DNA of 64,000 bases from Candidatus Eiseniibacteriota bacterium (GTDB taxonomy: Bacteria; Eisenbacteria; RBG-16-71-46), in the NCBI GenBank assembly GCA_044222065.1, contig JBGAOA010000007.1, positions 6,462 to 70,461 of the forward strand, in the 5' to 3' direction. Shown here piece after piece: positions 25,524-53,493 of the stretch; the first letter of the stretch is position 1; each line of letters starts with the position of its first letter. Under the pieces are notes generated by a model, which did not search any database, was not told where the DNA came from, and worked only from the letters and a program-made list of their open reading frames with translations. The translations under genes and the position numbers were made by a program.

Positions 25524-26053
25524 GGAGTGGTGTCTCCTTTCAAGGGCAGCCGCAGGACGATCTGCTCGCCGCCGCGATCGAGCACGACCTGCTCGCGGGT
25601 GATGCTGACGACTCGGAAATCCGAAAACAGCGTGTTCTCGCGCACCGACCAGTCGCGTCCGCCCCAGCGCACGGTCGCGCGCGGATCGGCGTCCCACACG
25701 ATCGAGGTGAGCAGCGGACGCGGCTTCTCGACGGGCGGCGCCGGAACGCGCGGCCGCGCCGGACCGGGCGCGGGATCGGGCGTTGCGATCGCGACGCCCG
25801 CGAACGGATCGCGGACGGGCGGCGTCACGGACGAACCGCGCGCGAGCAGCAGCGTCAGGCGCGAGTAGGGGTCCACGTGCGGCGCGCCGCGCGTCTGAGC
25901 GCGCTGCCAGGCGCCCGACTGACGGAGCGCCGTGGTCGTGACGTTCAGCACGAGCACGAGCGTGAGGAGCCCGAGGACGGGCGGCAGGAGCTGCGCGGGC
26001 GAGAGCTTCACGGACGTTCCGCCGGACGTTGCAGGACGAGGCGCTTCATCCAC
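25520..26053 (-). CDS. pilP: Putative pilus assembly protein in the PilP position
   Basis: Single N-terminal TM segment (LLPPVLGLLTLVLVL) and a Pro-rich region. Lies between pilO and pilQ. The assignment rests mainly on position. Confidence 0.5.
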   Translation of the reverse strand: MDEAPRPATSGGTSVKLSPAQLLPPVLGLLTLVLVLNVTTTALRQSGAWQRAQTRGAPHVDPYSRLTLLLARGSSVTPPVRDPFAGVAIATPDPAPGPARPRVPAPPVEKPRPLLTSIVWDADPRATVRWGGRDWSVRENTLFSDFRVVSITREQVVLDRGGEQIVLRLPLKGDTTP

Positions 26054-26571
26054 AGCTCGATCATCGGTTCGTCTCCGGCGCGCGTCAGGGTGAAGCGCTC
26101 GATCGCATCGAGCTTGCCCGAACGCTCGATGCCGTCGAGGAAGCGGACGAACTCGGGGTAGCCGCCGCGGAGCTTCAGGTGCGCGCGCAGCTCGATCGTG
26201 CGCTTGTTCGTCGTCACCGGCCCGGGTTCGGTGAGCATCACGCCCGAGCCGGCGCGCTGCGCGAGCGACGTGAGGTCTTCGAGCATTGTCACCGTGAGCT
26301 GGCCCGAGTTGCCCTTCTCGCTCGCCTCGCGGCCGGGCAGCGAGTTCAGCGTCACGAGCGAGAACACCGCTGGCGGCAGCGGAACCGTGGATCCGCCGCC
26401 ACCCGGGCTTTCGACGCCGCTGAACGGCTGGAGCGCCTTCTGGGCCGCCTCGTAACGCCGCACGGTCGGCAGGAACCAGAACGCGTGCAGTCCGAGCAGC
26501 ACGAGGCAGATCGCGACGCCGCCCGCGAGCTGCCAGTGGCGGCGGATCGTGGCGAGGAGGACGGGGTTCAT
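26008..26571 (-). CDS. pilO: Type IV pilus assembly protein PilO-like
   Basis: ATG at 26571 overlaps the pilN stop. Single TM (VAICLVLLGLHAFWFLP) followed by a periplasmic domain. Confidence 0.62.
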   Translation of the reverse strand: MNPVLLATIRRHWQLAGGVAICLVLLGLHAFWFLPTVRRYEAAQKALQPFSGVESPGGGGSTVPLPPAVFSLVTLNSLPGREASEKGNSGQLTVTMLEDLTSLAQRAGSGVMLTEPGPVTTNKRTIELRAHLKLRGGYPEFVRFLDGIERSGKLDAIERFTLTRAGDEPMIELWMKRLVLQRPAERP

Positions 26572-27143
26572 CGGCACTCGATCGTGAACTCGGCAGTCGG
26601 ATCCGAGGCGGCGCTCGAACTCGTCGAACCGAGCTGGATGTTGCGATAGCCGCGCGAGAACGCGGAATCCGAGTGCAGCGTCGAGACGAAGTTCATGACG
26701 CTTCGCATGCGCTCCTGCGCGTCGGCCGCGCGCAGCGTGCCGGTGATGATGAACGGCGGCGAGTCCACGCCCGTGACGTTCTGCGGATTCAAAGCGAGGG
26801 ACGAGACGCGTGCGGTCGGCGGCGTCAGGTCGGCGAGCCGCCCCATGCGCTCGCGCCAGCGCCGCGGATTCTCGACCGCCGACTCGATCTGGGCGATCTC
26901 CGCGGGCGTGAACGACCACGCGACGCGCTGCCCGGCTTCGACGCGCAGGCTCTTCGCCTGGCGCTCCATCGTCGCGACGCGGCGCGAGAACATGACGGCG
27001 TTCAATCCGTACAGGCCCAGCAGCAGCGCCATCACGCCGAAGTACGCGACCCACACGCCGAGCGCCACGACGCGGCGCCGCGCGCGCGCCTGCTCCTGTT
27101 CCCACGCTTCGCGGCGAAAGTTGATCGTGAACGTCGTGCTCAC
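26568..27143 (-). CDS. pilN: Type IV pilus assembly protein PilN-like
   Basis: GTG at 27143 overlaps the pilM stop. TM segment VVALGVWVAYFGVMALLLGLYGL. Fimbrial-assembly (PilN) topology. Confidence 0.68.
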   Translation of the reverse strand: MSTTFTINFRREAWEQEQARARRRVVALGVWVAYFGVMALLLGLYGLNAVMFSRRVATMERQAKSLRVEAGQRVAWSFTPAEIAQIESAVENPRRWRERMGRLADLTPPTARVSSLALNPQNVTGVDSPPFIITGTLRAADAQERMRSVMNFVSTLHSDSAFSRGYRNIQLGSTSSSAASDPTAEFTIECR

Positions 27144-28186
27144 ACGGACCTCAGCGCGAGGCCGTAGGCCTGCGCGAACTGCGGGCCCGTGCGCGCGCCC
27201 GCCGATTCGGCGTCGCGCTCGAGCGGGCTGAAGAGCAGCACGGGGAATCCGATCAGCTCCCCGAGCCGCGCCGCGAGTCCCGGAATGCGCGCCGTGCCGC
27301 CCGAGAGCCACAGCTTCATCGGATCCGGCAGACGCCCCATCGTGCGGTAGAACGCGAACGAGCGGCGCAGTTCCTCGACGAGATCGCGGCGCAGCGCATC
27401 GAGCATCGCCTGCATCTCGGGGGAGCCCCAGTCCACGCGGAAGCCCGGCTGGTCCGAGCCGGCGGCGAGCTTCCACTCGGCGGCCTCGTCGAGCGGGATG
27501 CGGGTCTCGCGCGCGATCGCGCGCGTGAGCGTCGCGCCGCCGAATTCGATGCGCCGGCCGAAGTACGGCTCGCCGCGCTGCCACAGCGTGAGGTGCGAGG
27601 ACTGGTGGCCGATGTCGAGCAGCAGCTGCGCCTCGCGCTCGGTCTCGCGTCCGTGCACGAGCGCGTTCGTCAGCGCGAGCGGCGCCGCGTCCACGATGTC
27701 GGCTTCGAGGCCGAGAGCCGTGAGCGGCGCCGAGCAGCGCGCGAGCCGCTCCTGCGAGACCGCGGCGAGCAGCACTTCGAGGCGCTTCTCGGACGGGTAG
27801 CGCGAGAGGATCTGGTAGTCCACGACCATGGAGCCGAGATCGAACGGCACGTGCTTGCGGGCTTCGAAGCGGAGCGCCGGACCGACCTCGTCGTCGGCGA
27901 GCAGCGGCAGCGTGATCTGCTTCACGAACACGTCCGGGCCCGAGAGGCCGAGCGTGAGGCCGCGAAGTCCGCGCGGCGACAGGCCGATCTGGCCGAACGC
28001 GTCGGCGACGAGGCGCACGACCGCATCCGTCGGCGGCGGCCCGTCACCGCTTTCGCCACCCGGCATCGAGACTTCGGCGAACAGCGGGCGCCCCGCGCCC
28101 ACGCCGACGGGCAACGCGACCAGTTTGATGGAGAACGTGCCGATGTCGAGCCCGACCCAGGGTCGGGAACGGATGCCAGACTGCAT
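27140..28186 (-). CDS. pilM: Type IV pilus assembly protein PilM (actin-like ATPase fold)
   Basis: VGLDIGTFSIKLVAL start motif. 348 aa. First gene of the pilMNOPQ block. Confidence 0.85.
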   Translation of the reverse strand: MQSGIRSRPWVGLDIGTFSIKLVALPVGVGAGRPLFAEVSMPGGESGDGPPPTDAVVRLVADAFGQIGLSPRGLRGLTLGLSGPDVFVKQITLPLLADDEVGPALRFEARKHVPFDLGSMVVDYQILSRYPSEKRLEVLLAAVSQERLARCSAPLTALGLEADIVDAAPLALTNALVHGRETEREAQLLLDIGHQSSHLTLWQRGEPYFGRRIEFGGATLTRAIARETRIPLDEAAEWKLAAGSDQPGFRVDWGSPEMQAMLDALRRDLVEELRRSFAFYRTMGRLPDPMKLWLSGGTARIPGLAARLGELIGFPVLLFSPLERDAESAGARTGPQFAQAYGLALRSV

Positions 28187-28202
28187 GTCGGGGAGTTTTA
28201 GC

Positions 28203-29450
28203 CTAATTGGACGCGGTGTTCCACGTACCGGGCTTGAGGGTCAGCTGGCCGCCGGTGAACACGGCATTCGGGAGCGCGCCCTGTTGTGTGAGCCAGTCGA
28301 TGACGCCGCCCGGCTGGTCCTGGGATGCGGTCTGGCGGTGGCGCAGCGTCCAGTCCTCCTTCTCGGCTTCCTTGAAACGCACCTCGGAGGCATAGACGCT
28401 GAAGTAGTCGACGCTGCGGACTTGGTTGTCGTAGCGCTTGGTCAGCTGCACTGCACCGTTGGTGACCAACACGACCGGCAGGCCGTCGGGTCCATCCGAG
28501 TCGAGGCCGTCGTCGAACCAGATGCCCTTGCCGGCCCACGGGCCCTCCGGGTCCGATTCGGTGCAGGTGCTCGGCCCCGCGACGATCACGAGGCACGCGG
28601 ATGGATCCGAGCCGATCTTCTCGACGCGCACACGATTCTGGAAGAACACGCCCTCAGGGAAGACCCAGACGGCGCGGCCGCGCACCCGGATCGTCGTCGT
28701 ACCGTGCGTCTCGAGGAACGTGAGGCCCGCGAACGTGCTGCGAACATAGGAGAAGTAGCGGAGGTTGTTCGCGCCCGCATCAAGCGTGTACGTCGGCGTC
28801 GTCATCGAGTCCTGAAGCGTCGCCTGGGTCGTCGAGCCGTGCGCCGCGAGATACGCCGCGATCGGTGGCGCCGGCACCGAGGGCGGCGCCATCCGGATGC
28901 CGTCCAGCTCGTTGTGGAGCTGCCCGAGCCAGCTCGCGTTCGCCGTGTTCCACCACGCCGTGTCGCCCCGCACGATGATCTTGTCGGTGTTCAGGGCGGT
29001 GATCGGGCCCGCGACCGTGAGCAGCCGCTTGTAGTAGTCGATGCTCGCGCGAATCTCGAACTGGCCGCCCGTCGCGACCGACACGTCGCCGAGCCGGCCG
29101 TAGGCGGTCAGGCTCACGGGCACGCCACCCGCGATCACGCCAGTCCGGTAGGTATTCGGCCCGATCGTCTGGGTCGCGACGACGGAGTCGATGCCGCCCG
29201 CGGGGAAACCCCAGTTCGAGTTCTCGAGCCGCCCGCCCTTCGCGAGCTGGAACTTCGCGCGCTCGATCGCGCTCTGGGTGGCCTCGAACATCTGCTCGCG
29301 GTCGAGCGAGGCGATCATGAACTGCGACTCGTACGACGACAGCGCGAACAGCGAGCCGCCGATCCACGTGAGCGCGATGATCAGCATGATCACGCCGATC
29401 AGCGCGAAACCGCGTTCACCGCGCTCGGAGGTTCGAAGCTCGCGCGTCAT
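28203..29450 (-). CDS. pilX: PilX-like minor pilin / pilus assembly protein with a PilX N-terminal domain
   Basis: ATG at 29450 overlaps the pilW stop. N-terminus MTRELRTSERGERGFALIGVIMLIIALTWIGG matches the PilX_N pattern. Confidence 0.62.
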   Translation of the reverse strand: MTRELRTSERGERGFALIGVIMLIIALTWIGGSLFALSSYESQFMIASLDREQMFEATQSAIERAKFQLAKGGRLENSNWGFPAGGIDSVVATQTIGPNTYRTGVIAGGVPVSLTAYGRLGDVSVATGGQFEIRASIDYYKRLLTVAGPITALNTDKIIVRGDTAWWNTANASWLGQLHNELDGIRMAPPSVPAPPIAAYLAAHGSTTQATLQDSMTTPTYTLDAGANNLRYFSYVRSTFAGLTFLETHGTTTIRVRGRAVWVFPEGVFFQNRVRVEKIGSDPSACLVIVAGPSTCTESDPEGPWAGKGIWFDDGLDSDGPDGLPVVLVTNGAVQLTKRYDNQVRSVDYFSVYASEVRFKEAEKEDWTLRHRQTASQDQPGGVIDWLTQQGALPNAVFTGGQLTLKPGTWNTASN

Positions 29451-29932
29451 CGGTTGTACATCCCCATCGTGGTGTTCAACTCGACGACGGCGCCGTTCGC
29501 GGAGCGCAGGTGCAACGCCGTCACGACGACTTGCGCGGTGTCCGCCCAGGCTTCGAAGCGCACGACCGTCGAGCTGCCGAGGCCGCCGCGGTCGATGAGC
29601 GTGCCGGGAATGCTCGCGACGTATTCGTGGACGAGGGAGTCCCCGCCGAGCTCGTACTTCGCGATCGAAAGTCCGTCGTGGTCGAAGAGGGTGATCGACG
29701 TCGGGCCCGTGGAAACCGTCGCCGACGCCGCGGGGCGGATGTGCTGCGTCATGCGCTCGAGGATGAACGTCCCCTCGCGCTGCGTGAGCGATTGCCCGGA
29801 CGACTCGATCCACGTCGCCTGCGACGTCAGGTAGAAGCCCACCATGCCGACCATGACGATCGTCGCGAGCACGACGACCACCGTCAGCTCGAGCAGCGTG
29901 AGGCCGCGTTCGTTCGAGGTCGTGCGCGTCAT
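29447..29932 (-). CDS. pilW: PilW-like minor pilin (prepilin-type N-terminal cleavage/methylation domain)
   Basis: MTRTTSNERGLTLLELTVVVVLATIVMVG. ATGA overlap with pilV. Confidence 0.68.
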   Translation of the reverse strand: MTRTTSNERGLTLLELTVVVVLATIVMVGMVGFYLTSQATWIESSGQSLTQREGTFILERMTQHIRPAASATVSTGPTSITLFDHDGLSIAKYELGGDSLVHEYVASIPGTLIDRGGLGSSTVVRFEAWADTAQVVVTALHLRSANGAVVELNTTMGMYNR

Positions 29933-30387
29933 TGGGCGGGGAAGAGCCGGGTGAGCACGATGCTGTCCGCTTCGGCGCCGGCGCCCCACGAGACCGAGAC
30001 GCGCGCCTGCTTCAGGTCGTTCGGTCCGTCCGAGTCCGAGCCGCCGGTGCTGTCGAATGCCGCGTCGTACCACGACACGTTCCAGCGTTCGGTGCCGTAG
30101 CTCGTTCCGCGATAGTCGAAGGTCGCGCTGCCCGTCGTGCCGGGCGTGAGCAGCGTCGCCGGCAGCACGGCGAGCTGTTCCATGCGCGACTGCGCGACGC
30201 CGAGCGCGGCGCGCGCGATCTCGTAGCGGCCGATCAAGCCGCGGCCCACCCCGAACGTGTACGCGAGCCCGAGCACGGCGACGACGGCGATCGCGGTCGC
30301 GAGCACCGCCTCGACCAGAGAGAAACCGCGCTGGCCGCGTGCGTCCGCGGCCAGCGCAGTGGGAGCCTTGCCCTGAAGGTCCTTCAT
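29929..30387 (-). CDS. pilV: PilV-like minor pilin
   Basis: MKDLQGKAPTALAADARGQRGFSLVEAVLATAIAVVAVLG, the N-terminal pattern of the PilV family. Confidence 0.68.
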   Translation of the reverse strand: MKDLQGKAPTALAADARGQRGFSLVEAVLATAIAVVAVLGLAYTFGVGRGLIGRYEIARAALGVAQSRMEQLAVLPATLLTPGTTGSATFDYRGTSYGTERWNVSWYDAAFDSTGGSDSDGPNDLKQARVSVSWGAGAEADSIVLTRLFPAQ

Positions 30388-30415
30388 CGATTGCGGCCCG
30401 TCCGGGGCCGTGCGA

Positions 30416-30811
30416 CTACGGCGTCCAGGTGCCGGTGCCCGTCGTGCGGTCGTACGCGTACGTGACGGTGCCGGCGGAGGCCACGTCGCCGATGCCGACG
30501 GCCGTGACCGTGTACCCGGTCGCACCCGTCGCGGCGACCGTGATCGTCCAGTGCGCCTTCGCTTCGGTGAGGTCGCAGTTCAGCGTCGTGCCGAGGCCGG
30601 TCGTGAAGTCGTCCGACGCGTACACGCCGTTGACCTGGAAGTGCGTCTGCTCGGCCGTGATGACGGCGCCGATCGCGCCCTTGGCTTCCGTGCGCTGTGC
30701 GTCCCGGACGTAATTGATGTAGAGCGGCACCGCCACCGCGGCCAGGATCGCCACGATCACGATGACGACCATCAACTCCATCAGGGTGAAGCCTTTTTGG
30801 TTCCTGCGCAT
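30416..30811 (-). CDS. pilA: Type IV major pilin PilA
   Basis: GAGGAGA RBS. MRRNQKGFTLMELMVVIVIVAILAAVAVP is a class III signal sequence with the G|FTLMELM cleavage site. 131 aa. Confidence 0.85.
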   Translation of the reverse strand: MRRNQKGFTLMELMVVIVIVAILAAVAVPLYINYVRDAQRTEAKGAIGAVITAEQTHFQVNGVYASDDFTTGLGTTLNCDLTEAKAHWTITVAATGATGYTVTAVGIGDVASAGTVTYAYDRTTGTGTWTP

Positions 30812-30939
30812 TCCGACGTCTCCTCTGCGGGTGGGCTCCCGTGTGACGGCCGCCCGGCGAACGTCGCCGGGGGTGTTGCGTTCGTGGGGATTCGCCGGCC
30901 GGATTCCAGCGGAACCCGGGTTCGGCGCGGTCGCGACTC

Positions 30940-32208
30940 CTAGTGTCCGAGCAGGCCGGACCGCATGGCCTGACCGAGGTTGAAGATCGGCAGGTAGAGG
31001 GCGATCAGGACGATGCCGACGACCCCGCCGAGCAGGACGATGGCGATCGGCTCGATCAGTGAAGACAGCCCGTCCACCGCCGCAGTCACTCGTTGTTCGT
31101 AGAAGTCTGCCGTGCGGCCGAGCATGTTGTCCAGTTGTCCCGTCTCTTCGCCGGTCGCCGTCATCTGGACGAGCATTTCCGGGAACACGCCCGTGTCGCC
31201 CATCGCCTTGGAAAGCGACGTTCCGGTCTCGACCTTCGCCCGAACCTCCTCGATGCCGCGCTCGAGCACCCGGTTGCCGGGCACCGGCTTCATCACCTTG
31301 AGCGCGTAGAGGATCTGGGTGCCGCTCGCGGTCAGGATCGAGAGCGTGCGGGCGAACTTCGTGATCGCGTACATGCGGATCAGGGAGCCAAAAACCGGCA
31401 ATCTGAACTTGAGGCGATCCATCCACAGCCGCCCCGCCTCGGTCTGGAGCGCGTTCCAGATCGCGAGCACCGCCACGACTCCGAGCGCTGCAACGAGCAG
31501 CAAGTTCTCGGTGATGACCCGGCTCACGACGAGCAGGATCTGGGTCGGCAGCGGGAGCGGGACCTTGAAGCGCGCGTAGATGGTCGCGAACATCGGGATG
31601 ATCTTGAGGATCATCACGAGCAGCACCATGAACGAGAACGTGAGCACGAACGTCGGGTAGCGCAGCGCCGCTTCGACGCGCACGCGCAGCGACTCGGCGC
31701 GCTCGAGGTAGGCCGCGGTCTGGTCCATGATCTGGTCGAGCGTGCCCGAAACCTCGCCCGTGTGGACGAGGCTCACGAACACCTCGTCGAACACCGCCGG
31801 GTGCCGCGACAGGGCGCTCGAGAGCGACTCGCCCTTCTGCACGTCCTCGGCGAGTCGCTCGAGGATGGACGCGAGCTTGCGGTCCTGATGGTCGCGCGCG
31901 ATCGAGCGCAGCGAGCGGACGAGCGGCAGGCCCACGCCGATCATCGTGGACAGCTGGCGTGCGAACAGCGCGACCGAGCCGGGCTGTACGTGGTTCTGCC
32001 AGCGGTCGAGCGCGTGGTGGTAGGCCTTGAGCAGCGGGAAGGCGCGAGCGCTCGCCCGCACGCCCTCGGGCGCGCGCGGCTCGATGAACACGGGCACGAG
32101 CTTCGAGCCCTCGAGGATGCGCAGAACTTCCTCTTCGGAAGCGGCGACCTCGATGCCCTCGTGCGCCCGCCCGCTCGAATCGCGGGCCTTGTAGTAGTAG
32201 CTCGGCAA
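30940..32208 (-). CDS. pilC: Type IV pilus platform protein PilC (GspF family)
   Basis: 422 aa with a duplicated GspF domain and three TM segments. Confidence 0.88.
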   Translation of the reverse strand: MPSYYYKARDSSGRAHEGIEVAASEEEVLRILEGSKLVPVFIEPRAPEGVRASARAFPLLKAYHHALDRWQNHVQPGSVALFARQLSTMIGVGLPLVRSLRSIARDHQDRKLASILERLAEDVQKGESLSSALSRHPAVFDEVFVSLVHTGEVSGTLDQIMDQTAAYLERAESLRVRVEAALRYPTFVLTFSFMVLLVMILKIIPMFATIYARFKVPLPLPTQILLVVSRVITENLLLVAALGVVAVLAIWNALQTEAGRLWMDRLKFRLPVFGSLIRMYAITKFARTLSILTASGTQILYALKVMKPVPGNRVLERGIEEVRAKVETGTSLSKAMGDTGVFPEMLVQMTATGEETGQLDNMLGRTADFYEQRVTAAVDGLSSLIEPIAIVLLGGVVGIVLIALYLPIFNLGQAMRSGLLGH

Positions 32209-32211
32209 TGC

Positions 32212-33936
32212 CTACTCCGGGTCGGCGAGCGTGACCGCCCGCACTTCGTCCAACGTCGTCACGCCGTCGAGCGCCTTGCGGATGCCGCTCTTGCGCAGCG
32301 TCATGAGTCCGTCGGCGACCGAGCGCTGCTTGATCTGGTCTTCGTTGAGGCCGTCGAGGACCATGCGCCGGACGCCCTTCGTCACTTCCATCACCTCGAA
32401 CACCGCGACGCGGCCCTGATAGCCGGTCTGCTTGCAGACGATGCAGCCGCGTCCGCGCGCGAGTCTCTTTCCCACGAGCAGCGGCGCGTCCTCGCCGAGC
32501 GCCGCGACCGTTTCGGCGTCGGCGACGTACCACTCCTTGCAGCGCTCGCACACGCGGCGCACGAGGCGCTGCGCCATCACCATCGTCACGGCGGAGCCAA
32601 CGAGGTAGCGCGGCACGTCCATGTCGACGAGGCGCGTCACCGTGCCGGGCGCGTCGTTCGCGTGCACCGACGACAGCACGAGGTGGCCCGTGAGCGCCGA
32701 CTTCACCGCGATGTCCGCGGTCTCGGCGTCACGGATCTCGCCGATCATGATCACGTCCGGGTCCTGGCGCAGGATCGAGCGCAGCGCGCGCGCGAACGTC
32801 ATGCCGACCTTGTGGTTCGCGTGCACCTGGTTCACGGCCTCGATGTGGTACTCGATCGGGTCCTCGACCGACACGACGTTCTTGTGGACGCTCTTGATCT
32901 CGCCGAGCGCCGAGTAGAGCGTCGTCGTCTTTCCCGATCCCGTCGGGCCCGAGACGAGGATCATGCCGTAGGGCTGGCGGATCGATCGCTGGAACACCTC
33001 GAGGCCCTGGCCTTCGAGCCCGAGATTGTGGATCTCGCGGGTGAACGCCATCTTGTCGAACAGTCGCATCACGACCTTCTCGCCGAACGCGGTCGGCAGC
33101 GTCGAGACGCGGATGTCCACCTCGCGGTCCGGCAGGTGCACCGTGAGCCGGCCGTCCTGCGGCAGCAGCCGCACGGCGATGTCGAGGTCCGAGAGCACCT
33201 TGATGCGCGAGATGATCGCCATCTGCAGATTCTTCGGCGGCTTCATGACCTCGTGCAGCAGGCCGTCGATGCGGAAGCGCACGACGACGCGGTCGCGCGC
33301 GGGCTCGACGTGGATGTCGCTCGCGCGCTGGTCGATCGCCTCGGCGAGCATCAGGTTCACGAGCCGCACGACCGGCGCGTCCTCGACCTGCGCGCGCAGC
33401 GCGGCGAGGTCCACGTCGGACTCCTCGTCGCTCGCGGCCGTGAGGTCGATCTTGTCGAGGATCTCGCCGACCTGCTCGGTCGCGCGGATCTCCTGGTAGA
33501 ACTCCTCGACCGCCTCGCGCACCTCGCTCGGCTGCGAGATCCACACCTTGAGCGAGCAGCCCGTGAGCGCGCGCAGGTGGTCGAGCGACACGACGTCGAG
33601 CGGATCGCCGACCGCGACCTCGATCTGGTCCTCGTGCCGCGCGAGCGCCAGCATGCCGGCCTGCTTCGCGAGGTGTTCGGGGATCAGCTTCACCGCGACG
33701 GGGTCGGCCTTCGAGAGCCGCTCGGCATCCGCGATCGGGAGCGAGAACTGCTCGGCGAGCAGCTCGACGACGTGACGCTCCTTGAGCACGCCCATGCGGA
33801 CGAGCGTCTGGCCGAGACGTTCCTTCGGATCGCTGCGTCCCTTGAGCGCGCCCTGCAGCTGCTCGGGCGTCACGAGCCCGCGCTCGACGATCAACTCGCC
33901 GAAGCGCCGCGTCGAGAGGCGGAACGAAGTCGTCAT
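32212..33936 (-). CDS. pilB: Type IV pilus assembly ATPase PilB (GspE family)
   Basis: ATG at 33936 overlaps the pilT stop. Walker A GPTGSGKTT, a tetra-Cys motif CERCK...CIVCKQTG, and an N-terminal GSPII domain. Confidence 0.9.
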   Translation of the reverse strand: MTTSFRLSTRRFGELIVERGLVTPEQLQGALKGRSDPKERLGQTLVRMGVLKERHVVELLAEQFSLPIADAERLSKADPVAVKLIPEHLAKQAGMLALARHEDQIEVAVGDPLDVVSLDHLRALTGCSLKVWISQPSEVREAVEEFYQEIRATEQVGEILDKIDLTAASDEESDVDLAALRAQVEDAPVVRLVNLMLAEAIDQRASDIHVEPARDRVVVRFRIDGLLHEVMKPPKNLQMAIISRIKVLSDLDIAVRLLPQDGRLTVHLPDREVDIRVSTLPTAFGEKVVMRLFDKMAFTREIHNLGLEGQGLEVFQRSIRQPYGMILVSGPTGSGKTTTLYSALGEIKSVHKNVVSVEDPIEYHIEAVNQVHANHKVGMTFARALRSILRQDPDVIMIGEIRDAETADIAVKSALTGHLVLSSVHANDAPGTVTRLVDMDVPRYLVGSAVTMVMAQRLVRRVCERCKEWYVADAETVAALGEDAPLLVGKRLARGRGCIVCKQTGYQGRVAVFEVMEVTKGVRRMVLDGLNEDQIKQRSVADGLMTLRKSGIRKALDGVTTLDEVRAVTLADPE

Positions 33937-35069
33937 CGGGGCGCCGCCGATCGCGCCGGAACGCCGCCGGCGATGTTCGCCGCCCGGTAGTGGCGCTTCT
34001 GGAGGTGGGCGCGCTTCTCGGTGTCCTCGAAGTACGGATGCGCGACCTCGAAGTCGATCGTGCCGCGATCCACGAGCTCGGCGAGCGAATCGTCGAGCGC
34101 GATCATGTCCTCCTTGAGGCTCGTCGCGATCACGTTCGTGATCTGGTGGATCTTGTCCTCGCGGATCAGGTTCTGCACCGCCTGGTTGACGAACAGGATC
34201 TCGCGCGCCGCGACGCGCCCGCGGCCGTCCGTGCGCGGCAGCAGCACCTGGCACACGACGGCGCGCAGCGTGAGCGAGAGCTGCGAGCGGATCTGCGACT
34301 GCTGGTGCGGGGGGAACGAGTCGATGATGCGCGTCACGGTCTGCGAGGCGGACTGCGTCGCCATCGTCGAGATGACGAGGTTGCCCGTCTCGGCCGCGGT
34401 CAGCGCGATCGCCATGCTCGAGAGGTCTCGCATCTCGCCGACGAAGATCACGTGCGGCAGCTGCCGCAGCGCGCCGCGCAGGCCGCGCGCGTAGCTCTTC
34501 GTGTCCACGCCGACCTCGCGCTGTTCGATCACGGCGTTCTTCGGCTCGAACACGAACTCGATCGGGTCCTCGACCGTCACGATGTGCTTGCGCGCCGCAC
34601 CCTGGTTCAGCTGCTCGACGAGCGACGCGATCGTCGTGGACTTGCCGGCGCCGGTCGGCCCCGTCACGAGCACGAGGCCGCGCGTGAGCCCGAGCAGCCG
34701 CTGGACGACGTGCGGGGCGAGCCCGATCTCGGTCGGAAGCGGGATGCGCATGGGAACGATGCGGATCGCGGCGCCCCAGCAGCCCTTCTGGACGAACAGG
34801 TTGACGCGGAAGTGGGCCACGCCCGCGAGCACGTAGCGCGTGTCGAGTTCGAGGTCGCGCAGGAAGCGCTCGTGGAGCGCGGGGGTGAGGAAGCTCTCGG
34901 CGAGGCGGCGCGAGTCGTCCGGCGTGAGCGATTGCGTTCCCGTCATCGGCTGCAGCACGCCCGCGACCGTGACCATGACCGGGTGGCCCGCGGTCAGGAT
35001 GAGGTCCGAGGCGCCGAGTTCGGCCGCCCGCCTCAGGATCGGGTCGCGTTCGAGGAGGATGGCGTCCAT
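33933..35069 (-). CDS. pilT: Twitching-motility retraction ATPase PilT
   Basis: Walker A GPTGAGKST, His box and AIRNLIRE-like motif (AVQNLIREDKIHQI). Confidence 0.88.
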   Translation of the reverse strand: MDAILLERDPILRRAAELGASDLILTAGHPVMVTVAGVLQPMTGTQSLTPDDSRRLAESFLTPALHERFLRDLELDTRYVLAGVAHFRVNLFVQKGCWGAAIRIVPMRIPLPTEIGLAPHVVQRLLGLTRGLVLVTGPTGAGKSTTIASLVEQLNQGAARKHIVTVEDPIEFVFEPKNAVIEQREVGVDTKSYARGLRGALRQLPHVIFVGEMRDLSSMAIALTAAETGNLVISTMATQSASQTVTRIIDSFPPHQQSQIRSQLSLTLRAVVCQVLLPRTDGRGRVAAREILFVNQAVQNLIREDKIHQITNVIATSLKEDMIALDDSLAELVDRGTIDFEVAHPYFEDTEKRAHLQKRHYRAANIAGGVPARSAAPR

Positions 35070-35819: not shown

Positions 35820-36632
35820 ATGAACCTGCTTCGCTCCACGCTCACGCTCACGGCCCTCGGACTCGTGCTCATGGTCTCCTCGGTGCAGGCGCAGTCCACC
35901 TGGAACAGCGTCACCGTGCGCTGGACCACGCCGGGTGACGACAGTCTCGCGGGCACGGCCTCGGAGTTCGACCTGCGCTACTCGACTTCGCCGATCACGA
36001 TCGCGAACTTCGCCTCGGCGACCCGATTCCTCGCCACGCCCACGCCCGCGACCCCGGGGACGCAGCAGTCCGTGGTCGTGACGGGGCTCCAGCCGAGCAC
36101 GACCTACTATTTCGCGATCAAGACCGGCGACGACGTCCCGAACTGGTCGGGGCTCTCGAACGTCGTCTCGAAGACGACGACCGCGGCGCCCGACGACGTG
36201 CGTCCGGCGGCGATCGCGAACGTCGCGATCACGGCGCTCACCGACTCGTCCGCCGCGCTCGCGTGGACGGCGACCGGCGACGACAGCCTGACGGGCACGG
36301 CGACGACCTACGACGTCCGCTACTCGACGGCGCCCATCACGCTCGCGAACTGGGCGGCCGCGTCGCAGGCGACCGGTGAACCGGCGCCGGCGGTCTCGGG
36401 CACCGCGCAGTCGTTCACGGTGCGCGGTCTCGCGCGCCAGACCACCTACTACTTCGCGATCCGGGTCGCGGACGAGGGCGGCAATCCGTCGGCGCTCTCG
36501 AACGTTCCGAGCGGCACCACGACCGATACGCTCGCCCCGGCCGCCATCCGCGACCTGGCCGCGAGCTTCGTGTGGTTCGGCTCGACCCTGAGCGCGGTGC
36601 TGCCGCGGCAGCCGGAGCCTTCGTCCCGATGA
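35820..36632 (+). CDS. Secreted protein with three fibronectin type III-like repeats
   Basis: Signal peptide MNLLRSTLTLTALGLVLMVSSVQA. Three repeats of the pattern W(T/A)ATGDDSL(A/T)GTA..YD(L/V)RYST(S/A)PIT(I/L)ANW...TTYYFAI. Confidence 0.72.
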   Translation: MNLLRSTLTLTALGLVLMVSSVQAQSTWNSVTVRWTTPGDDSLAGTASEFDLRYSTSPITIANFASATRFLATPTPATPGTQQSVVVTGLQPSTTYYFAIKTGDDVPNWSGLSNVVSKTTTAAPDDVRPAAIANVAITALTDSSAALAWTATGDDSLTGTATTYDVRYSTAPITLANWAAASQATGEPAPAVSGTAQSFTVRGLARQTTYYFAIRVADEGGNPSALSNVPSGTTTDTLAPAAIRDLAASFVWFGSTLSAVLPRQPEPSSR

Positions 36633-37642
36633 TCTTCTTCACGACGCCGAGACGCCCGCGCACGGGCCGGCCCGCGTGGCGGCGATACTTCGCCGGCATC
36701 GTCGCGGTGCTGCTCGCGCTGCTCGCGCCGGCGCTCGTGAACGCGCAGACGCCGACCGACAGCCTGACGCTGACGTGGACCGCCACGGGCGACGACTCGA
36801 CGATCGGCACGGCGACGCTCTACGACATGAAGTACTCGACCTCGCCTATCACGCTCGCGAACTGGAGCTCGGCGCCGAGCGTGCCCGGCATGCCGGCGCC
36901 GCTGCCGTCCGGCACGCGCCAGACCGTGAGGCTGCGCGGCCTGTCGCGCGACACGACCTACTACGTCGCGATCCGCACCCGCGACGACGCGAGCAACTGG
37001 TCCGCGCTCTCGAACGTCGTGCGCTGGGACTGGACGCTCGACACGGCGCCGCCGTCGGCGCCGACCGGCGTCGCGGCCGCGAACGAAGGCGACAACGTGC
37101 GCGTGACGTGGAACGCGAACGCGGAGGCCGACCTCGCGGGTTACTTCGTGTACCGCGCGACCGCCGCGGGCGGACCGTTCACGAAGCTCACGCCGTCGCT
37201 TCTCACCGGCACGACGCAGTACCTCGACACGAACGTCCCGTCGGGCGCCGCGTCCGTGTGGTACCGCGTGACCGCGCGCGACCTCAACCTGAACGAGAGC
37301 GCGCAGAGCGCCGCGGCGCAGGCGGTCGTGGGCGGCACGAACGGCGTCGTCGCCGACTGGACGCTCTCGCCCGGCTATCCGAACCCGAGCCGCATCGGTC
37401 AGCCCGTGTGCTTGCCCATGGTCATCCCGGCGAGCGGCGCGGGCGAGGCGGTCGTGGACATCCTGAACGTCGCGGGCTCGCGCGTGCGGAGGCTCTACGT
37501 CGGCTCCGCGCCGAGCTGCCTCGGCGGCATCGAGTGGGACGGCCGCAACGACGCAGGCGCCGACGTCGCCCCCGGCGTGTACCGCGCGTGGCTGATCGTG
37601 GGCGGCCAGCGCAACGTCATCAAGCTGGTGCGCCAGCCGTGA
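36629..37642 (+). CDS. Secreted protein with FN3-like repeats and a Por-secretion-tail-like C-terminal domain
   Basis: ATG overlaps the upstream stop (ATGA). It has its own signal peptide. Repeats have the same pattern as the upstream gene. C-terminal tail VVDILNVAGSRVRRLY...WDGRNDAGADVAPGVYRAWLIVGGQRNVIKLV. Confidence 0.72.
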   Translation: MIFFTTPRRPRTGRPAWRRYFAGIVAVLLALLAPALVNAQTPTDSLTLTWTATGDDSTIGTATLYDMKYSTSPITLANWSSAPSVPGMPAPLPSGTRQTVRLRGLSRDTTYYVAIRTRDDASNWSALSNVVRWDWTLDTAPPSAPTGVAAANEGDNVRVTWNANAEADLAGYFVYRATAAGGPFTKLTPSLLTGTTQYLDTNVPSGAASVWYRVTARDLNLNESAQSAAAQAVVGGTNGVVADWTLSPGYPNPSRIGQPVCLPMVIPASGAGEAVVDILNVAGSRVRRLYVGSAPSCLGGIEWDGRNDAGADVAPGVYRAWLIVGGQRNVIKLVRQP

Positions 37643-37656
37643 GGAAGGAACCGCGC

Positions 37657-39345
37657 ATGAGACTCCGGATCGCACCGTTCAGCCTTGTCCTCGCGCTCAC
37701 GCTCGCGCCCGCCACGGCGCTCGCCGGCATCGAGCAGGCGGGCACGACGGCCGCGAACTTCCTCAGCGTCGGCTCGAGCCCGGCGACGCTCGCGATGGGC
37801 GGCGCGGGACTCGCGCGCACGGGCGAGCTCGGACTCACGACGTGGAACGCGGCGACGCTCGCGTGGATCGGCGAGACCCGCTACACGTTCTCGCACGCGT
37901 CGCTCACCGAGCAGAGTTCGCAGGAGTGGGCGGCTGCGGCCGGCCGCATGGGCCAGGGTCCGTGGCGCTGGGCGATGACCGGCCTCTACCAGGGCGACGG
38001 ATCGTTCGATGGCCGCGACGCGCTCGGCAATCCGACCGGCAGCTTCAACGTTTCGAGCATGGCGATCGGCGGCACGGTCGCGCGCAGCTTCAACGGGCTG
38101 TCGGGCGTCGGCGTCGGCTTCAAGTACGTGAGCGAGAACCTCGGCGGAGTCACGGGCTCGGGGATCGCGATGGACGCGGGCTTCACTTACGCCGCCGGCC
38201 CCGTCAGCCTCGGTGCCGCCGCGCAGAATGCGTTCGGCAACATGTCCTACTCCGGCGCGAAGTACTCGATGCCTTCGAACTACGGCGCGGGCGTCGCGCT
38301 GAACGTCCCGGCGAGCGGCGTCACGCTCGCGCTCGACGCGAACTTCCCGAAGGCCTACTACAACGACGTGCGCTTCGGCGCGGAGTGGCGCTACCGCGAG
38401 GCGATCGCGCTGCGCGGCGGCTACCGCATGGAACTCGGCGCGGGCGACGGCGAGCCGCTCTCGGGCCCGACGTTCGGCCTCGGCGCCGGCGCGAACGGAT
38501 TCTGGTTCGACTACGGCTTCATCGTCGGCGGCGGCGGCGCGAGCGGACAGCACCGCCTCGGCCTGACGTTCCGTCCCGGCGTGCTCAATCCGGGCGCGAC
38601 CTCGGTCGCCGCACCCGGCTCGGGCTACTCGACGGGATCGTCGAAGCCGCGCCTCGCGGACTCCGAGTCGCCGCGCGTCGAGAAGTCGCCGAAGCCTGCG
38701 AAGCCCGCGAAGCCGGCGAAGGTCGTGGCGCCGAAACCCGAGCCCGTCGCGAGCGCCGAGCCCGTGAAGCCGGCGAAGCCCGCGAAGGCCGAGAAGCGCG
38801 CGGTGAGCGTCGGCGACGATTCGCCCGTGCTCACGGACACGCCGCAGGCCGTGAAGATCGAGCCGACGAAGCCGGCCGAGCCGGCGTCCGACACCGAGGC
38901 CGCGGTCGTGTCGTCTCCGAAGACGAAGGCGCCGAAGGCCGAGAAGGTGAAGACGCCGAAGCCCGAGAAGGTGAAGGTCGAGAAGCCGAAGAAGACCAAG
39001 ACCCAGCCCGACGCTCCGCTCGCCCCGCTCACCGTGATCGCGCCCGAAGGCGGCGCGGTCGCGATGGCTGCGCCGAGCGAGCCGGCCGAAGCCGCGGCGC
39101 CGAAGGCGGCCGAGCCGGTGCGCGTCGAGGCTCCGAAGCCCGCGAAGACCGAGGCGCCGGCGCCGGTGGTCGCGAAGCCCGCGTCGCGCCCCGACAAGGT
39201 GAAGGTCGGCGCGGACGAGTCGCTCTCCGACATCGCGAAGCGCTGGGACACGAGCGTCGCCGCGATCATGATGGAGAACAACCTCGTCAGCGACCGCGTG
39301 AAGCCGGGTCAGACGCTCAAGCTGCCGCCGCCTTCGAAGAAGTGA
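37657..39345 (+). CDS. PorV/PorQ-family-like outer-membrane beta-barrel fused to a Lys/Pro/Ala-rich low-complexity linker and a C-terminal LysM domain
   Basis: GAGGAAGGA RBS. Signal peptide MRLRIAPFSLVLALTLAPATALA. N-terminal motif GTTAANFLSVGSSPATLAMGGAGLA resembles the PorV-family signature. A barrel of about 300 aa. PAKPAKPAK/KPEKVK repeats. C-terminal VKVGADESLSDIAKRWDTSVAAIMMENNLVSDRVKPGQTLKLP is a LysM fold. Confidence 0.68.
   Translation: MRLRIAPFSLVLALTLAPATALAGIEQAGTTAANFLSVGSSPATLAMGGAGLARTGELGLTTWNAATLAWIGETRYTFSHASLTEQSSQEWAAAAGRMGQGPWRWAMTGLYQGDGSFDGRDALGNPTGSFNVSSMAIGGTVARSFNGLSGVGVGFKYVSENLGGVTGSGIAMDAGFTYAAGPVSLGAAAQNAFGNMSYSGAKYSMPSNYGAGVALNVPASGVTLALDANFPKAYYNDVRFGAEWRYREAIALRGGYRMELGAGDGEPLSGPTFGLGAGANGFWFDYGFIVGGGGASGQHRLGLTFRPGVLNPGATSVAAPGSGYSTGSSKPRLADSESPRVEKSPKPAKPAKPAKVVAPKPEPVASAEPVKPAKPAKAEKRAVSVGDDSPVLTDTPQAVKIEPTKPAEPASDTEAAVVSSPKTKAPKAEKVKTPKPEKVKVEKPKKTKTQPDAPLAPLTVIAPEGGAVAMAAPSEPAEAAAPKAAEPVRVEAPKPAKTEAPAPVVAKPASRPDKVKVGADESLSDIAKRWDTSVAAIMMENNLVSDRVKPGQTLKLPPPSKK
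38640..39200 (+). repeat. Coding low-complexity K/P/A/E-rich region including tandem PAK tripeptide repeats
   Basis: AAGCCNGCGAAGCCNGCGAAGCCGGCGAAG tandem codon repeats at about 38688-38722, then KPEPV/KAPKAEKVKTPKPEKVK-type repeats. Confidence 0.7.
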
Positions 39346-39405
39346 GCGCGCATCGCGCGCGAACCGCGCCCGGCGAGGGATCGCCGGGCGCGTTCGTTTT
39401 GCGCC

Positions 39406-39769: not shown

Positions 39770-40144
39770 TCAGAGTCTCACGGCCGCGGCGTAGCCCGCG
39801 AACGCGGCCAGTACGCCGACCCCGAGCGAGCCGAGCGCATAGCCGGCCGCGGCCGTCCACTGGCCGTCCCTGAGCAGCGCGAGCGCCTCGTACGAGAACG
39901 CCGAGAACGTCGTGAAGCCGCCGAGCACGCCGACGATCGCGAACAGCCGGAACGGGGGAGGGACGAGCGCGCGCTCGAGCGCGAGCGCGCCGAGGAATCC
40001 GATCGCGAGCGAGCCCGCGGCGTTCACGGCGAACGTCCCCCACGGGAACGCCCCGCCCGCGGCGCGCTGCACGAGCCCCGAGAGCCACCAGCGCAACAGG
40101 CTGCCGATCGCGCCACCGCCCGCGACCAGCAGCACGTCCCTCAC
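39770..40144 (-). CDS. crcB: Fluoride ion channel CrcB (Fluc)
   Basis: GTG at 40144 overlaps the E1alpha stop (GTGA). Motifs GGAIGSLLRW, GTFAVNAAGSLAIGF and GGFTTFSAFSYE. 124 aa. Confidence 0.8.
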   Translation of the reverse strand: MRDVLLVAGGGAIGSLLRWWLSGLVQRAAGGAFPWGTFAVNAAGSLAIGFLGALALERALVPPPFRLFAIVGVLGGFTTFSAFSYEALALLRDGQWTAAAGYALGSLGVGVLAAFAGYAAAVRL

Positions 40145-42443: not shown

Positions 42444-42455
42444 CGCGTCCTCGTT

Positions 42456-42758: not shown

Positions 42759-42764
42759 GGGGCC

Positions 42765-53316: not shown

Positions 53317-53382
53317 CGGCGCCCCGCCGTCGCGGAATCCGTGGGGGCTCGGCCCCGCCGCTGGCGCTCAGACGCCCGCGCG

Positions 53383-53420: not shown

Positions 53421-53493
53421 CGTCCAGTGGATTGGGGCCTCTCCGCGCCTCGCTCCGCCGACAAGACGCTTCCACCCACCCGAGGAGACTCCG

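What the first reader, a model, noticed from the sequence alone, without database searches (positions are those of the whole stretch)
37657..39345. PorV-like outer-membrane barrel fused to a Lys/Pro/Ala repeat linker and a LysM peptidoglycan-binding domain
The N-terminal third carries the signature motif of the PorV/PorQ family (GTTAANFLSVGSSPATLAMGGAGLA; compare the A-x-FL-x-G-x-x-A-x-AMGGA pattern). PorV/PorQ proteins are the shuttle and accessory barrels of Bacteroidota type IX secretion. Here that barrel is followed by ~190 aa of PAKPAK/KPEKVK low-complexity repeats and then a canonical LysM fold. I do not recognise a barrel-linker-LysM architecture as described. It would tether an outer-membrane cargo shuttle to the cell wall. 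The gene lies immediately downstream of two FN3 cargo-like genes, one of which carries a Por-type C-terminal tail. The window holds three further tail-bearing proteins.
Basis: partly seen in the sequence, partly recalled or inferred. Interest (0 to 1): 0.75.

Follow-up and report, generated by a model that had tools for sequence, protein, structure and literature searches.

The report
Cell-wall-tethered PorV-like outer-membrane barrel
This gene from an uncultured Eisenbacteria bacterium encodes an outer-membrane barrel of the PorV/PorQ family, known from type IX secretion, joined by a long floppy linker to a cell-wall-binding LysM domain. It most likely holds the neighbouring surface protein on the cell and ties that assembly to the cell wall; this domain combination is common in databases but I found no paper describing it.

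Summary

It is not an orthologue of PorV, PorQ or PorV2, because all three equivalog cutoffs are missed. Close orthologues occur only in Candidatus Eisenbacteria. Among complete species representatives, 19 of 37 carry LysM.

Every Eisenbacteria locus that retains the upstream sequence keeps the operon FN3x2 -> FN3-CTD -> barrel. More distant PorV-family barrels (Elusimicrobia, Aerophobetes, Calditrichota and others) also often follow a gene whose C-terminal domain resembles the retained CTDs of PorU and PorZ. Other family members carry OmpA, SPOR or SH3 domains where this one has LysM.

Best reading: a PorQ-like dedicated anchor for the co-encoded CTD protein, tied to peptidoglycan. [quoted passage not shown] A roaming general shuttle fits the evidence less well.

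Whether Eisenbacteria have a T9SS translocon or motor could not be tested. Verdict: new variant of a known kind, moderate interest.

The parts
35820..36632 (+). First gene of the operon: a secreted protein of 270 aa with two FN3 domains, a signal peptide and no CTD.
   Evidence: PF00041 fn3 scores 63 bits in two stretches. Orthologues sit directly upstream in nearly all Eisenbacteria loci that retain the upstream sequence. Its stop overlaps the next gene's start by 4 nt.
36629..37642 (+). Second gene: 337 aa with an N-terminal signal or anchor helix, two FN3-like sandwiches and a C-terminal CTD. It is the proposed partner of the barrel.
   Evidence: fn3 scores 34.9 bits and FlgD_ig scores 31.7 bits. 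The AF2 model has pLDDT 89.8 and shows three tandem beta-sandwiches. The gene lies immediately upstream of the barrel gene in all Eisenbacteria loci that retain the upstream sequence.
37355..37639 (+). C-terminal domain (residues 243-337) of the FN3-CTD protein, with the motifs PNP ... GVY ... KLVRQP.
   Evidence: An HMM built only from orthologue CTDs hits the TIGR04183-positive tails of the window's M36 protease (E 1.3e-11) and of 53317-55845 (E 4.3e-7). The alignment profile hits FlgD Ig domains (E 3e-6) and, weakly, the PorZ CTD 5m11_A residues 676-753 (E 0.088). TIGR04183 itself is not significant for this tail.
37643..37649 (+). Shine-Dalgarno-like GGAAGGA, 7 nt before the ATG at 37657.
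   Evidence: Read directly from the sequence.
37657..37725 (+). Sec signal peptide (residues 1-23, ending ...ATALA|GIEQ).
   Evidence: Read from the translation. The model shows a helix at residues 6-16. The cleavage site is inferred.
37744..38571 (+). PorV/PorQ-family domain (residues 30-305): the conserved N-terminal motif region followed by a 14-strand beta-barrel (strands from residue 75 to 305).
38575..39189 (+). Disordered linker rich in Ala, Pro and Lys (residues 307-511) with KPA/PAK and EKVK repeats; inferred to be a periplasmic leash.
   Evidence: pLDDT is 43-60. Composition and net charge of +11 are. Tail length (everything after the barrel, LysM included) ranges from about 90 to 690 aa in orthologues.
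39190..39330 (+). LysM peptidoglycan-binding domain (residues 512-558).
   Evidence: PF01476 scores 38.8 bits. pLDDT is about 95, with a beta-alpha-alpha-beta arrangement: E514-516, H523-529, H534-540, E553-555. The profile hits LytE and other LysM chains in the PDB.
39365..39392 (+). Terminator-like hairpin that closes the three-gene operon.
   Evidence: A 12-bp stem with 11 G-C pairs is followed by TTCGTTTTGC. This is a consensus match only.
24225..35069 (-). Context: a divergently transcribed, complete type IVa pilus cluster (PilQ secretin, PilM/N/O, pilins, PilC, PilB, PilT). It is usually, but not always, next to the operon.
   Evidence: Pfam hits are and translations. Synteny is conserved in about 27 Eisenbacteria loci and absent in, for example, L029, L032, L039 and L045.
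1520..5524 (+). Context: an M36-type metalloprotease with a P-domain and a type A sorting CTD, showing that this genome uses Por-type tails.
   Evidence: TIGR04183 scores 29.2 bits against a cutoff of 23. Peptidase_M36, FTP, P_proprotein and FlgD_ig are found by Pfam.
53539..55848 (+). Context: a 769-aa protein with a type A sorting CTD.
   Evidence: TIGR04183 scores 32.5 bits against a cutoff of 23. FlgD_ig scores 34.9 bits.

Best explanation
The product is exported by Sec and inserted in the outer membrane as a compact 14-strand barrel of the PorV/PorQ family.

Shown: the family membership, the fold, the linker and the LysM domain.

Inferred, step 1: both barrel termini face the periplasm. 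The roughly 200-residue Ala/Pro/Lys linker therefore hangs into the periplasm, and the terminal LysM binds peptidoglycan non-covalently. This makes an outer membrane-to-cell wall leash.

Inferred, step 2: on the outside, the barrel binds the uncleaved C-terminal domain of the protein encoded just upstream (FN3-FN3-CTD, 36629-37642) and holds it on the cell surface. PorQ holds PorZ this way, PorV holds PorU, and PorP/SprF barrels hold their type B cargo.

The whole would then be a chain of surface protein, outer-membrane barrel and cell wall. That makes it a one-polypeptide version of the bridge that P. gingivalis builds from two proteins, the PorP barrel and the peptidoglycan-binding PorE.

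How the FN3-CTD protein crosses the outer membrane is not shown. A SprA-type translocon elsewhere in the genome is assumed.
For: Family and fold:
- NF033709 scores 101 bits against a cutoff of 90.
- The alignment profile hits the F. johnsoniae PorV sequence at E 4.8e-12 and no FadL chain.
- The AF2 barrel has pLDDT above 90 and 14 strands.
- Among the equivalog models, PorQ scores higher (71.6) than PorV (27.6).

Peptidoglycan tether:
- The LysM Pfam hit and a confident LysM fold.
- The linker is disordered.
- Other NF033709 members carry a different peptidoglycan-binding module in the same C-terminal position: OmpA (P0213 and P0248, 77-86 bits), SPOR (P0232) and SH3_3 (P0262; P0238 sub-threshold at 24.3 vs 27). 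This independent recurrence supports a periplasmic C-terminus and selection for wall attachment.

Pairing with the CTD protein:
- The order FN3x2 -> FN3-CTD -> barrel is kept in every Eisenbacteria locus that retains the upstream sequence (about 43 species), while downstream genes vary.
- Seven loci carry a tandem second [FN3-CTD][barrel] pair.
- In 13 of 35 testable distant loci (Elusimicrobia, Aerophobetes, Eiseniibacteriota bin56, Calditrichota, Chitinophagaceae), a CTD-ending ORF stops within 400 nt upstream of the barrel. My estimate of the chance rate is about 0.015 per locus.
- Those CTDs mostly match best (7 of the 10 tested), and in all 10 cases match, the CTD ends of the PorU and PorZ models, which are the two CTDs known to be retained on PorV and PorQ. 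For L049 the PorZ match is 63.6 bits.

Literature:
- The PorZ CTD stays bound to PorQ and the PorU CTD to PorV. Type B cargo genes cluster with their cognate PorP/SprF barrels (PMC10202324, PMC12618676).
- PorE bridges PorP to peptidoglycan, and PorE-like genes are proposed to mark non-mobile cargo (PMC9143113).
Against: - No binding was tested; the pairing rests on gene order alone.
- The window's own FN3-CTD tail does not reach TIGR04183 or the PorU/PorZ models. Its homology to type A CTDs comes from my own HMM and a weak PorZ hit at E 0.088.
- The barrel is about 100 residues smaller than PorV and has only short loops, whereas PorV uses long loops to engage cargo and SprA.
- About half of the orthologues lack LysM (16 of 37 species have only a 40-aa basic tail), so the wall tether is not essential to the family's core role.
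- The first operon protein (FN3x2) has no CTD and no assigned role.
- No T9SS translocon, motor or sortase gene was seen in the parts of the 64-kb window that were scanned. Their presence in Eisenbacteria is unverified.
Confidence: 0.55

Rival explanations
1. The protein is the organism's general PorV shuttle: it collects all type A CTD cargo (M36 protease and others) at a SprA-type translocon and delivers it to a PorU sortase. The LysM leash merely limits its range.
For: PorV is the best structural and PDB-sequence match. The window encodes at least two TIGR04183-positive cargo-like proteins. A 205-aa flexible linker and non-covalent LysM binding would still allow lateral movement.
Against: The PorV equivalog scores 27.6 against a cutoff of 250, lower than PorQ. 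The gene is strictly co-operonic with one CTD protein, and the pair duplicates as a unit. CTDs next to distant relatives resemble the retained PorU/PorZ CTDs and less often generic cargo tails. The barrel lacks PorV's long loops. I could not check whether the genome holds another, more PorV-like paralogue.
Confidence: 0.12
2. The protein is a generic envelope-stabilising outer-membrane protein, an OmpA-like tether between outer membrane and peptidoglycan. Its FadL-type barrel may also admit hydrophobic substrates. The link to CTD proteins is only inherited gene order.
Against: No Toluene_X/FadL Pfam hit appears for this protein even at E<=1. The profile finds PorV but no FadL chain in the PDB. 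CTD-gene-to-barrel adjacency recurs across unrelated phyla far above chance, which inherited synteny cannot explain.
Confidence: 0.15
3. The three-gene operon is an accessory of the adjacent type IV pilus system, for example a surface adhesin or anchor that works with the pilus.
For: A complete T4aP cluster lies divergently upstream in the window and in about 27 Eisenbacteria loci.
Against: The pilus cluster has its own PilQ secretin. Several Eisenbacteria loci with 8-9 kb of upstream sequence have no pil genes (L029, L032, L039, L045). Among distant relatives, the CTD-barrel pairs lack pil neighbours except for one pilin hit in L049.
Confidence: 0.05
4. CTD plus PorV-family barrel is a self-contained display module that works without a T9SS translocon. 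The barrel itself, or BAM-assisted co-insertion, gets the partner to the surface. See the novel case below.
For: The pair occurs in Elusimicrobia, Aerophobetes and Desantisbacteria. Papers found here describe T9SS as confined to Bacteroidota or the FCB group (PMC10515386, PMC7906972, PMC12398890). No T9SS core gene was seen in the window.
Against: A plugged 14-strand barrel is too narrow for folded FN3 domains. T9SS core genes were simply not searchable in these genomes, so their absence is not shown. In Bacteroidota all PorV-like barrels depend on SprA.
Confidence: 0.13

Closest known systems
PorQ-PorZ and PorV-PorU pairs of the P. gingivalis T9SS attachment complex
   Different: It is not an orthologue, because all equivalog cutoffs are missed. 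The barrel is about 100 aa smaller with short loops. It has a C-terminal linker plus LysM that PorQ and PorV lack. The partner is a small FN3 protein, not a sortase or an A-LPS carrier. The phylum is Eisenbacteria.
PorP-PorE-PG1035 complex and the SprF-SprB pair (PorP/SprF barrels with type B CTD cargo; PMC9143113, PMC12618676)
   Same: The cargo gene and its barrel gene are adjacent. The barrel anchors the cargo through the CTD. The barrel is bridged to peptidoglycan, which was proposed to mark non-mobile cargo.
   Different: There the peptidoglycan binder is a separate lipoprotein (PorE, with an OmpA_C-like domain); here it is fused in cis and is a LysM. The target gives no PF11751 PorP_SprF hit. 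The CTD is related to type A/FlgD_ig, not to type B.
OmpA-type outer-membrane proteins (beta-barrel, Pro/Ala hinge, periplasmic OmpA_C domain)
   Same: The layout is the same: an N-terminal outer-membrane barrel, a low-complexity hinge and a C-terminal non-covalent peptidoglycan-binding domain. Some PorV-family relatives carry a true OmpA_C domain (P0213, P0248).
   Different: The barrel has 14 strands and is of the FadL/PorV type, not 8 strands. The wall binder is LysM, not OmpA_C. The linker is roughly ten times longer.
Intimin/invasin inverse autotransporters (periplasmic LysM plus 12-strand barrel)
   Different: In intimin the LysM is N-terminal, and the passenger is part of the same chain and threads through the barrel. 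Here the LysM is C-terminal and the displayed protein is a separate gene product.
FadL/TodX/TbuX hydrophobic-compound channels and Bacteroidota BamG
   Different: There is no sequence-level family hit. Those proteins have no peptidoglycan-binding extension and no CTD-gene partner.

Membership tests
PorV/PorQ family (NCBIfam NF033709, subfamily model) | Whole-protein HMM score at or above the curated cutoff of 90 bits. | tested here: met
   101 bits, E 9.3e-29, residues 30-305 aligned to profile positions 1-324 of 326. The short orthologue P0057 scores 117 bits.
PorV/PorQ family (NCBIfam NF033709, subfamily model) | A 14-strand FadL-like outer-membrane barrel closest to solved PorV. | tested here: met
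T9SS PorV proper (NF033710, equivalog) | Score at or above 250 bits. | tested here: not met
   27.6 bits.
T9SS PorQ proper (NF033711, equivalog) | Score at or above 220 bits. | tested here: not met
   71.6 bits, with only residues 13-216 aligned.
PorV2 (NF052325, equivalog) | Score at or above 325 bits. | tested here: not met
   13.4 bits.
PorP/SprF family (PF11751) | A Pfam hit at or above the gathering score. | tested here: not met
   No hit at E<=1 for the target. Some distant relatives give only sub-threshold hits.
Type IX secretion system (as a system) | [quoted passage not shown] | not testable with these tools
   Only the 64-kb window and stretches of up to 10 kb either side of homologues could be read. 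None of these genes was seen among the window proteins scanned. No paper links Eisenbacteria with T9SS.
Type IX secretion system (as a system) | Proteins with a type A sorting CTD (TIGR04183) are present. | tested here: met
   1520-5524 scores 29.2 bits and 53539-55848 scores 32.5 bits, against a cutoff of 23. 49875-52292 scores 18.8, below the cutoff.
LysM domain (PF01476) | A Pfam hit at or above the gathering score, and a beta-alpha-alpha-beta fold. | tested here: met
   38.8 bits against 20.9. The model shows E514-516, H523-529, H534-540 and E553-555 at pLDDT about 95. Peptidoglycan binding itself was not tested.
FadL/Toluene_X transporters (PF03349) | A Pfam hit at or above the gathering score. 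| tested here: not met
   No hit at E<=1. The fold is similar but ranks second to PorV.
OmpA family (PF00691 C-terminal domain) | Presence of an OmpA_C-like domain. | tested here: not met
   Absent from the target. Present in the distant PorV-family members P0213 and P0248.

The most novel reading that the evidence does not exclude
A CTD-bearing surface protein plus a cognate PorV/PorQ-family barrel may be an ancient, modular surface-display unit. It would be spread well beyond Bacteroidota (Eisenbacteria, Elusimicrobia, Aerophobetes, Desantisbacteria, Calditrichota). It would work without the canonical SprA/PorKLMN type IX machinery, and it would have been repeatedly welded to the cell wall through interchangeable LysM, OmpA, SPOR or SH3 modules. 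On this view the Bacteroidota attachment complex (PorQ-PorZ, PorV-PorU) is a derived specialisation of that older module.
Probability: 0.15. Interest if true: 0.8.

Novelty: new variant of a known kind. Interest (0 to 1): 0.55.

Why it matters
Papers found here describe type IX secretion as confined to Bacteroidota or the FCB group. PorV-like barrels are usually discussed as free shuttles or as PorQ/PorP anchors. In the one complex characterised so far (PorP-PorE-PG1035), wall attachment is supplied by a separate protein, PorE.

This locus shows that a PorV/PorQ-family barrel can carry its own peptidoglycan anchor. The barrel is hard-wired by operon structure to one CTD protein. The same logic recurs, with different wall-binding modules, in several little-studied phyla.

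That gives a simple three-gene system for testing two things: how a CTD is recognised and retained by its cognate barrel, and whether wall tethering separates static anchors from mobile shuttles.

It also points to Eisenbacteria and Elusimicrobia genomes as places to ask whether CTD-barrel pairs need a SprA translocon at all.

Tried and rejected
1. An exact look-up of the product in the contig index found nothing. The identical protein P0134 was later shown to exist on an 85.9-kb NCBI contig. It adds no context beyond the window.

2. Literature searches returned nothing relevant for Eisenbacteria with T9SS, for PorV with LysM, or for T9SS with other FCB or candidate phyla.

3. A Foldseek search with the FN3-CTD model returned only eukaryotic tandem-FN3 proteins and says nothing about the CTD. 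A sequence profile against the PDB gave FlgD Ig domains and only a weak PorZ CTD hit.

4. The afdb50 fold library was unavailable.

5. T9SS core genes were not seen among about 40 of the roughly 58 window proteins scanned. The whole genome could not be reached, so this is not evidence of absence.

6. The idea that the barrel replaces a pilus secretin was rejected because PilQ is present.

7. The long ORFs on the opposite strand and in other frames (for example 37495-38553 on the minus strand) were rejected as artefacts of 71% GC. Only the + frame has GC3 of 0.94.

8. A mirror-tree co-evolution test of barrel against CTD was considered but not run, because shared phylogeny would confound it.
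Full report
OBSERVATION

The window is about 71% G+C, so long spurious ORFs occur in every frame. A GC3-based gene map keeps a single + strand gene at this position, with GC3 of 0.94. The ATG at 37657 is preceded by GGAAGGA 7 nt upstream. The stop at 39345 is followed by a 12-bp GC-rich hairpin and a T-rich tail.

The 562-aa product begins with a Sec-type signal peptide (...ATALA|GIEQ). It matches NCBIfam NF033709, 'PorV/PorQ family protein', at 101 bits against a cutoff of 90, over residues 30-305. It matches Pfam LysM at 38.8 bits over residues 516-557.

Residues 307-511 between the two domains are 19.5% Ala, 18.5% Pro and 14% Lys, with net charge +11. They are encoded by DNA with period-9, -15 and -24 tandem repeats.

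STRUCTURE

An AlphaFold2 model was built on 121 sequences (query plus 120 homologues). It gives a 14-strand barrel (residues 75-305, pLDDT above 90), preceded by the conserved motif region (residues 24-72, lower confidence). The linker is disordered (pLDDT 43-60). The LysM domain has a beta-alpha-alpha-beta fold at pLDDT about 95.

The barrel is about 100 residues shorter than PorV, and all its loops are short.

WHAT IT IS NOT

The equivalog models are all missed: PorV 27.6 against 250, PorQ 71.6 against 220, and PorV2 13.4 against 325. The protein is a member of the broad family, not an orthologue of a characterised T9SS component. It leans towards PorQ more than PorV.

WHO HAS IT

Close homologues (48-61% identity) come only from Candidatus Eisenbacteria metagenome-assembled genomes. 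The identical protein is on an 85.9-kb NCBI contig.

Of the 121 aligned sequences (query plus 120 90%-identity cluster representatives), 43 carry the C-terminal LysM. The rest end about 40 residues after the barrel in a Pro- and Lys-rich tail. Among GTDB species representatives with a complete gene, 19 have LysM, 16 have the short tail and 2 have another long tail.

On a neighbour-joining tree of the barrel, the LysM forms fill several large clades, with about 8 state changes. The fusion is therefore old and has been repeatedly lost or gained; it is not an assembly artefact. Tail length (everything after the barrel, LysM included) varies from about 90 to 690 residues, which fits a leash better than a spacer of fixed length.

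NCBI already names these proteins 'PorV/PorQ family protein' or 'LysM peptidoglycan-binding domain-containing protein'. I found no paper describing the architecture.

GENE CONTEXT

The gene is the last of a three-gene + strand operon:
- 35820-36632: a secreted protein with two FN3 domains.
- 36629-37642: two FN3 domains plus a C-terminal FlgD_ig-type domain. Its start overlaps the previous stop by 4 nt.
- 37657-39345: the barrel gene.

The order FN3x2 -> FN3-CTD -> barrel is kept in every Eisenbacteria locus that retains the upstream sequence, while the downstream genes vary. Seven loci carry a second tandem [FN3-CTD][short barrel paralogue] unit just upstream of the LysM-bearing pair. This suggests that each barrel goes with its own CTD protein.

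A complete type IVa pilus cluster, from PilQ to PilT, lies divergently upstream in the window and in about 27 other loci. It is missing in several loci that have 8-9 kb of upstream sequence (L029, L032, L039, L045). The pilus cluster is a frequent neighbour, not part of the unit.

THE PARTNER'S TAIL

The last 95 residues of the FN3-CTD protein carry the PNP ... GxY ... K-hydrophobic pattern typical of type A CTDs. TIGR04183 itself is not significant for this tail. However, an HMM built only from orthologous tails hits the TIGR04183-positive tails of the window's M36 protease (E 1.3e-11) and of 53317-55845 (E 4.3e-7).

The alignment profile hits FlgD Ig domains in the PDB and, weakly, the PorZ CTD (E 0.088). 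The AF2 model (pLDDT 89.8) shows three tandem beta-sandwiches. A fold search with it returned only tandem-FN3 proteins and was uninformative for the CTD.

THE WIDER FAMILY

A profile of the barrel finds 16,259 representatives at E<=1e-3 in a library of 1.8 billion proteins. In GTDB genomes the next relatives (23-31% identity) come from Elusimicrobia, Aerophobetes, a divergent Eiseniibacteriota genome, Calditrichota, KSB1, Ignavibacteria and Bacteroidota. All of those tested pass NF033709 (150-211 bits), and none reaches an equivalog cutoff.

Two patterns stand out.

1. A CTD gene precedes the barrel gene. In 13 of 35 testable distant loci, an ORF that ends in a CTD stops within 400 nt upstream of the barrel gene. 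Some of these ORFs encode giant proteins of up to 3,287 aa. With 34 such ORFs in 538 kb, I estimate a chance rate of about 0.015 per locus. The C-terminal 150 residues of ten such proteins all match the CTD ends of the PorU sortase and PorZ models, and these are the best match in 7 of the 10 (L049 against PorZ, 63.6 bits). Three of the ten pass TIGR04183. PorU and PorZ are the two T9SS proteins whose CTDs are not cleaved and stay bound to PorV and PorQ (PMC10202324).

2. Other wall-binding modules replace LysM. Many family members have C-terminal extensions, and these carry other periplasmic peptidoglycan-binding modules: OmpA (P0213 from Candidatus Desantisbacteria, and P0248), SPOR (P0232) and SH3_3 (P0262 above the gathering score; P0238 sub-threshold). 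P0202 from Elusimicrobia carries TPR repeats instead. Independent acquisition of different wall binders at the same position is strong comparative evidence that the C-terminus is periplasmic and that wall attachment is selected.

MECHANISM

Shown: the protein is a PorV/PorQ-family 14-strand barrel with a disordered linker and a LysM domain.

Inferred from outer-membrane barrel topology and the comparative data: the linker and the LysM domain are periplasmic and bind peptidoglycan.

Inferred from gene order across phyla and from the PorU/PorZ-like CTDs: the barrel docks the uncleaved CTD of its operon partner and keeps it on the cell surface.

The closest functional parallel is the P. gingivalis PorE-PorP-PG1035 complex. 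There, a PorV-like barrel holds a CTD protein, and a separate lipoprotein, PorE, bridges the barrel to peptidoglycan. The authors proposed that PorE-linked barrels hold non-mobile cargo (PMC9143113). Here the bridge is fused into the barrel's own chain.

A 200-residue leash and non-covalent binding do not rule out movement, however.

WEAK POINTS

- No interaction was tested.
- The target's own partner CTD is atypical by the curated models.
- The barrel lacks PorV's long loops.
- Half of the orthologues lack LysM.
- FN3x2 has no assigned role.
- I could not determine whether Eisenbacteria encode SprA, PorK/L/M/N or PorU. None was seen among the window proteins scanned, and no paper addresses the question.

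Papers found here call T9SS confined to Bacteroidota or the FCB group (for example PMC10515386, PMC7906972, PMC12398890). It therefore remains possible, though I rate it at about 15%, that CTD-barrel pairs operate without the canonical machinery.

VERDICT

The finding is real, and its domain interpretation is right. It is a lineage-wide, unpublished but database-visible variant of the PorV/PorQ barrel theme. Its gene context is informative, and relatives have independently acquired other wall-binding modules at the same position. I classify it as a new variant of a known kind with moderate interest (0.55).

Noticed in passing
window 24225-35069 (-): A complete type IVa pilus gene cluster: PilQ secretin with an STN domain, PilM, PilN/O-like genes, a major pilin with a ComP_DUS-type domain, minor pilins, PilC, PilB and PilT. 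It is transcribed divergently from the FN3/barrel operon and is syntenic in most Eisenbacteria.
   Followed up: partly
L002 5307-11599; also L014, L021, L022, L027, L031, L046: Some Eisenbacteria carry a tandem duplication of the unit: [FN3x2][FN3-CTD][short PorV-like barrel][FN3-CTD, 433 aa][PorV-like barrel with LysM]. Only the downstream barrel keeps the LysM.
   Followed up: partly
P0133, P0136, P0148, P0153, P0160; L016 7589-10105: A minority of Eisenbacteria orthologues have a long Ala/Pro/Lys tail that does not end in LysM. It ends instead in a short conserved motif, roughly DPF(E/D)xAIxRAKK(L/M)KPG, which has no Pfam match. This may be an alternative periplasmic end-piece of unknown function.
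   Followed up: no
L063 2-9862, L066 2-9853, L062 2-6904, L053 2990-8842 (Elusimicrobia): Giant proteins (1,951 to more than 3,287 aa, some cut by contig ends) end in a PorU/PorZ-like CTD and sit directly upstream of a PorV/PorQ-family barrel gene. T9SS is not described for this phylum.
   Followed up: partly
P0144 (916 aa), P0145 (1004 aa): These orthologues of the target have tails of 600-690 residues after the barrel (linker plus a roughly 47-residue LysM), three times the length seen in the window.
   Followed up: no
window 1520-5524 (+): A 1,334-aa secreted M36 (fungalysin-type) metalloprotease with an FTP propeptide, a CarboxypepD_reg domain, a proprotein-convertase P-domain and a type A sorting CTD.
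   Followed up: partly
window 44639-46642 (+), preceded by 43998-44642 (+): A 667-aa Nramp-type metal transporter. Its orthologues carry a C-terminal universal-stress-protein (Usp) domain fused to the transporter (Pfam annotations of L001 and L004). It lies downstream of a DtxR-family metal regulator gene.
   Followed up: no
window 40141-43739 (-): A 2-oxoacid dehydrogenase operon (E1 beta, E2, E1 alpha) has a 100-aa ABM-like small gene inserted between E1 beta and E2. The insertion is conserved in several Eisenbacteria loci.
   Followed up: no
window 18163-20067 (-): A 634-aa protein combines a retropepsin-like aspartyl protease domain (PF13650) with a C-terminal PDZ domain.
   Followed up: no
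window 15025-17367 (+): HypF carbamoyltransferase (787 bits), which implies that a [NiFe]-hydrogenase maturation pathway is encoded nearby.
   Followed up: no
window 49875-52292 (-): An 805-aa protein with an InhA-like MAM domain. Its C-terminal tail scores just under the TIGR04183 cutoff (18.8 against 23) and is not detected by the CTD HMM built from FN3-CTD orthologues. It is a marginal third 'tail-bearing' protein.
   Followed up: partly
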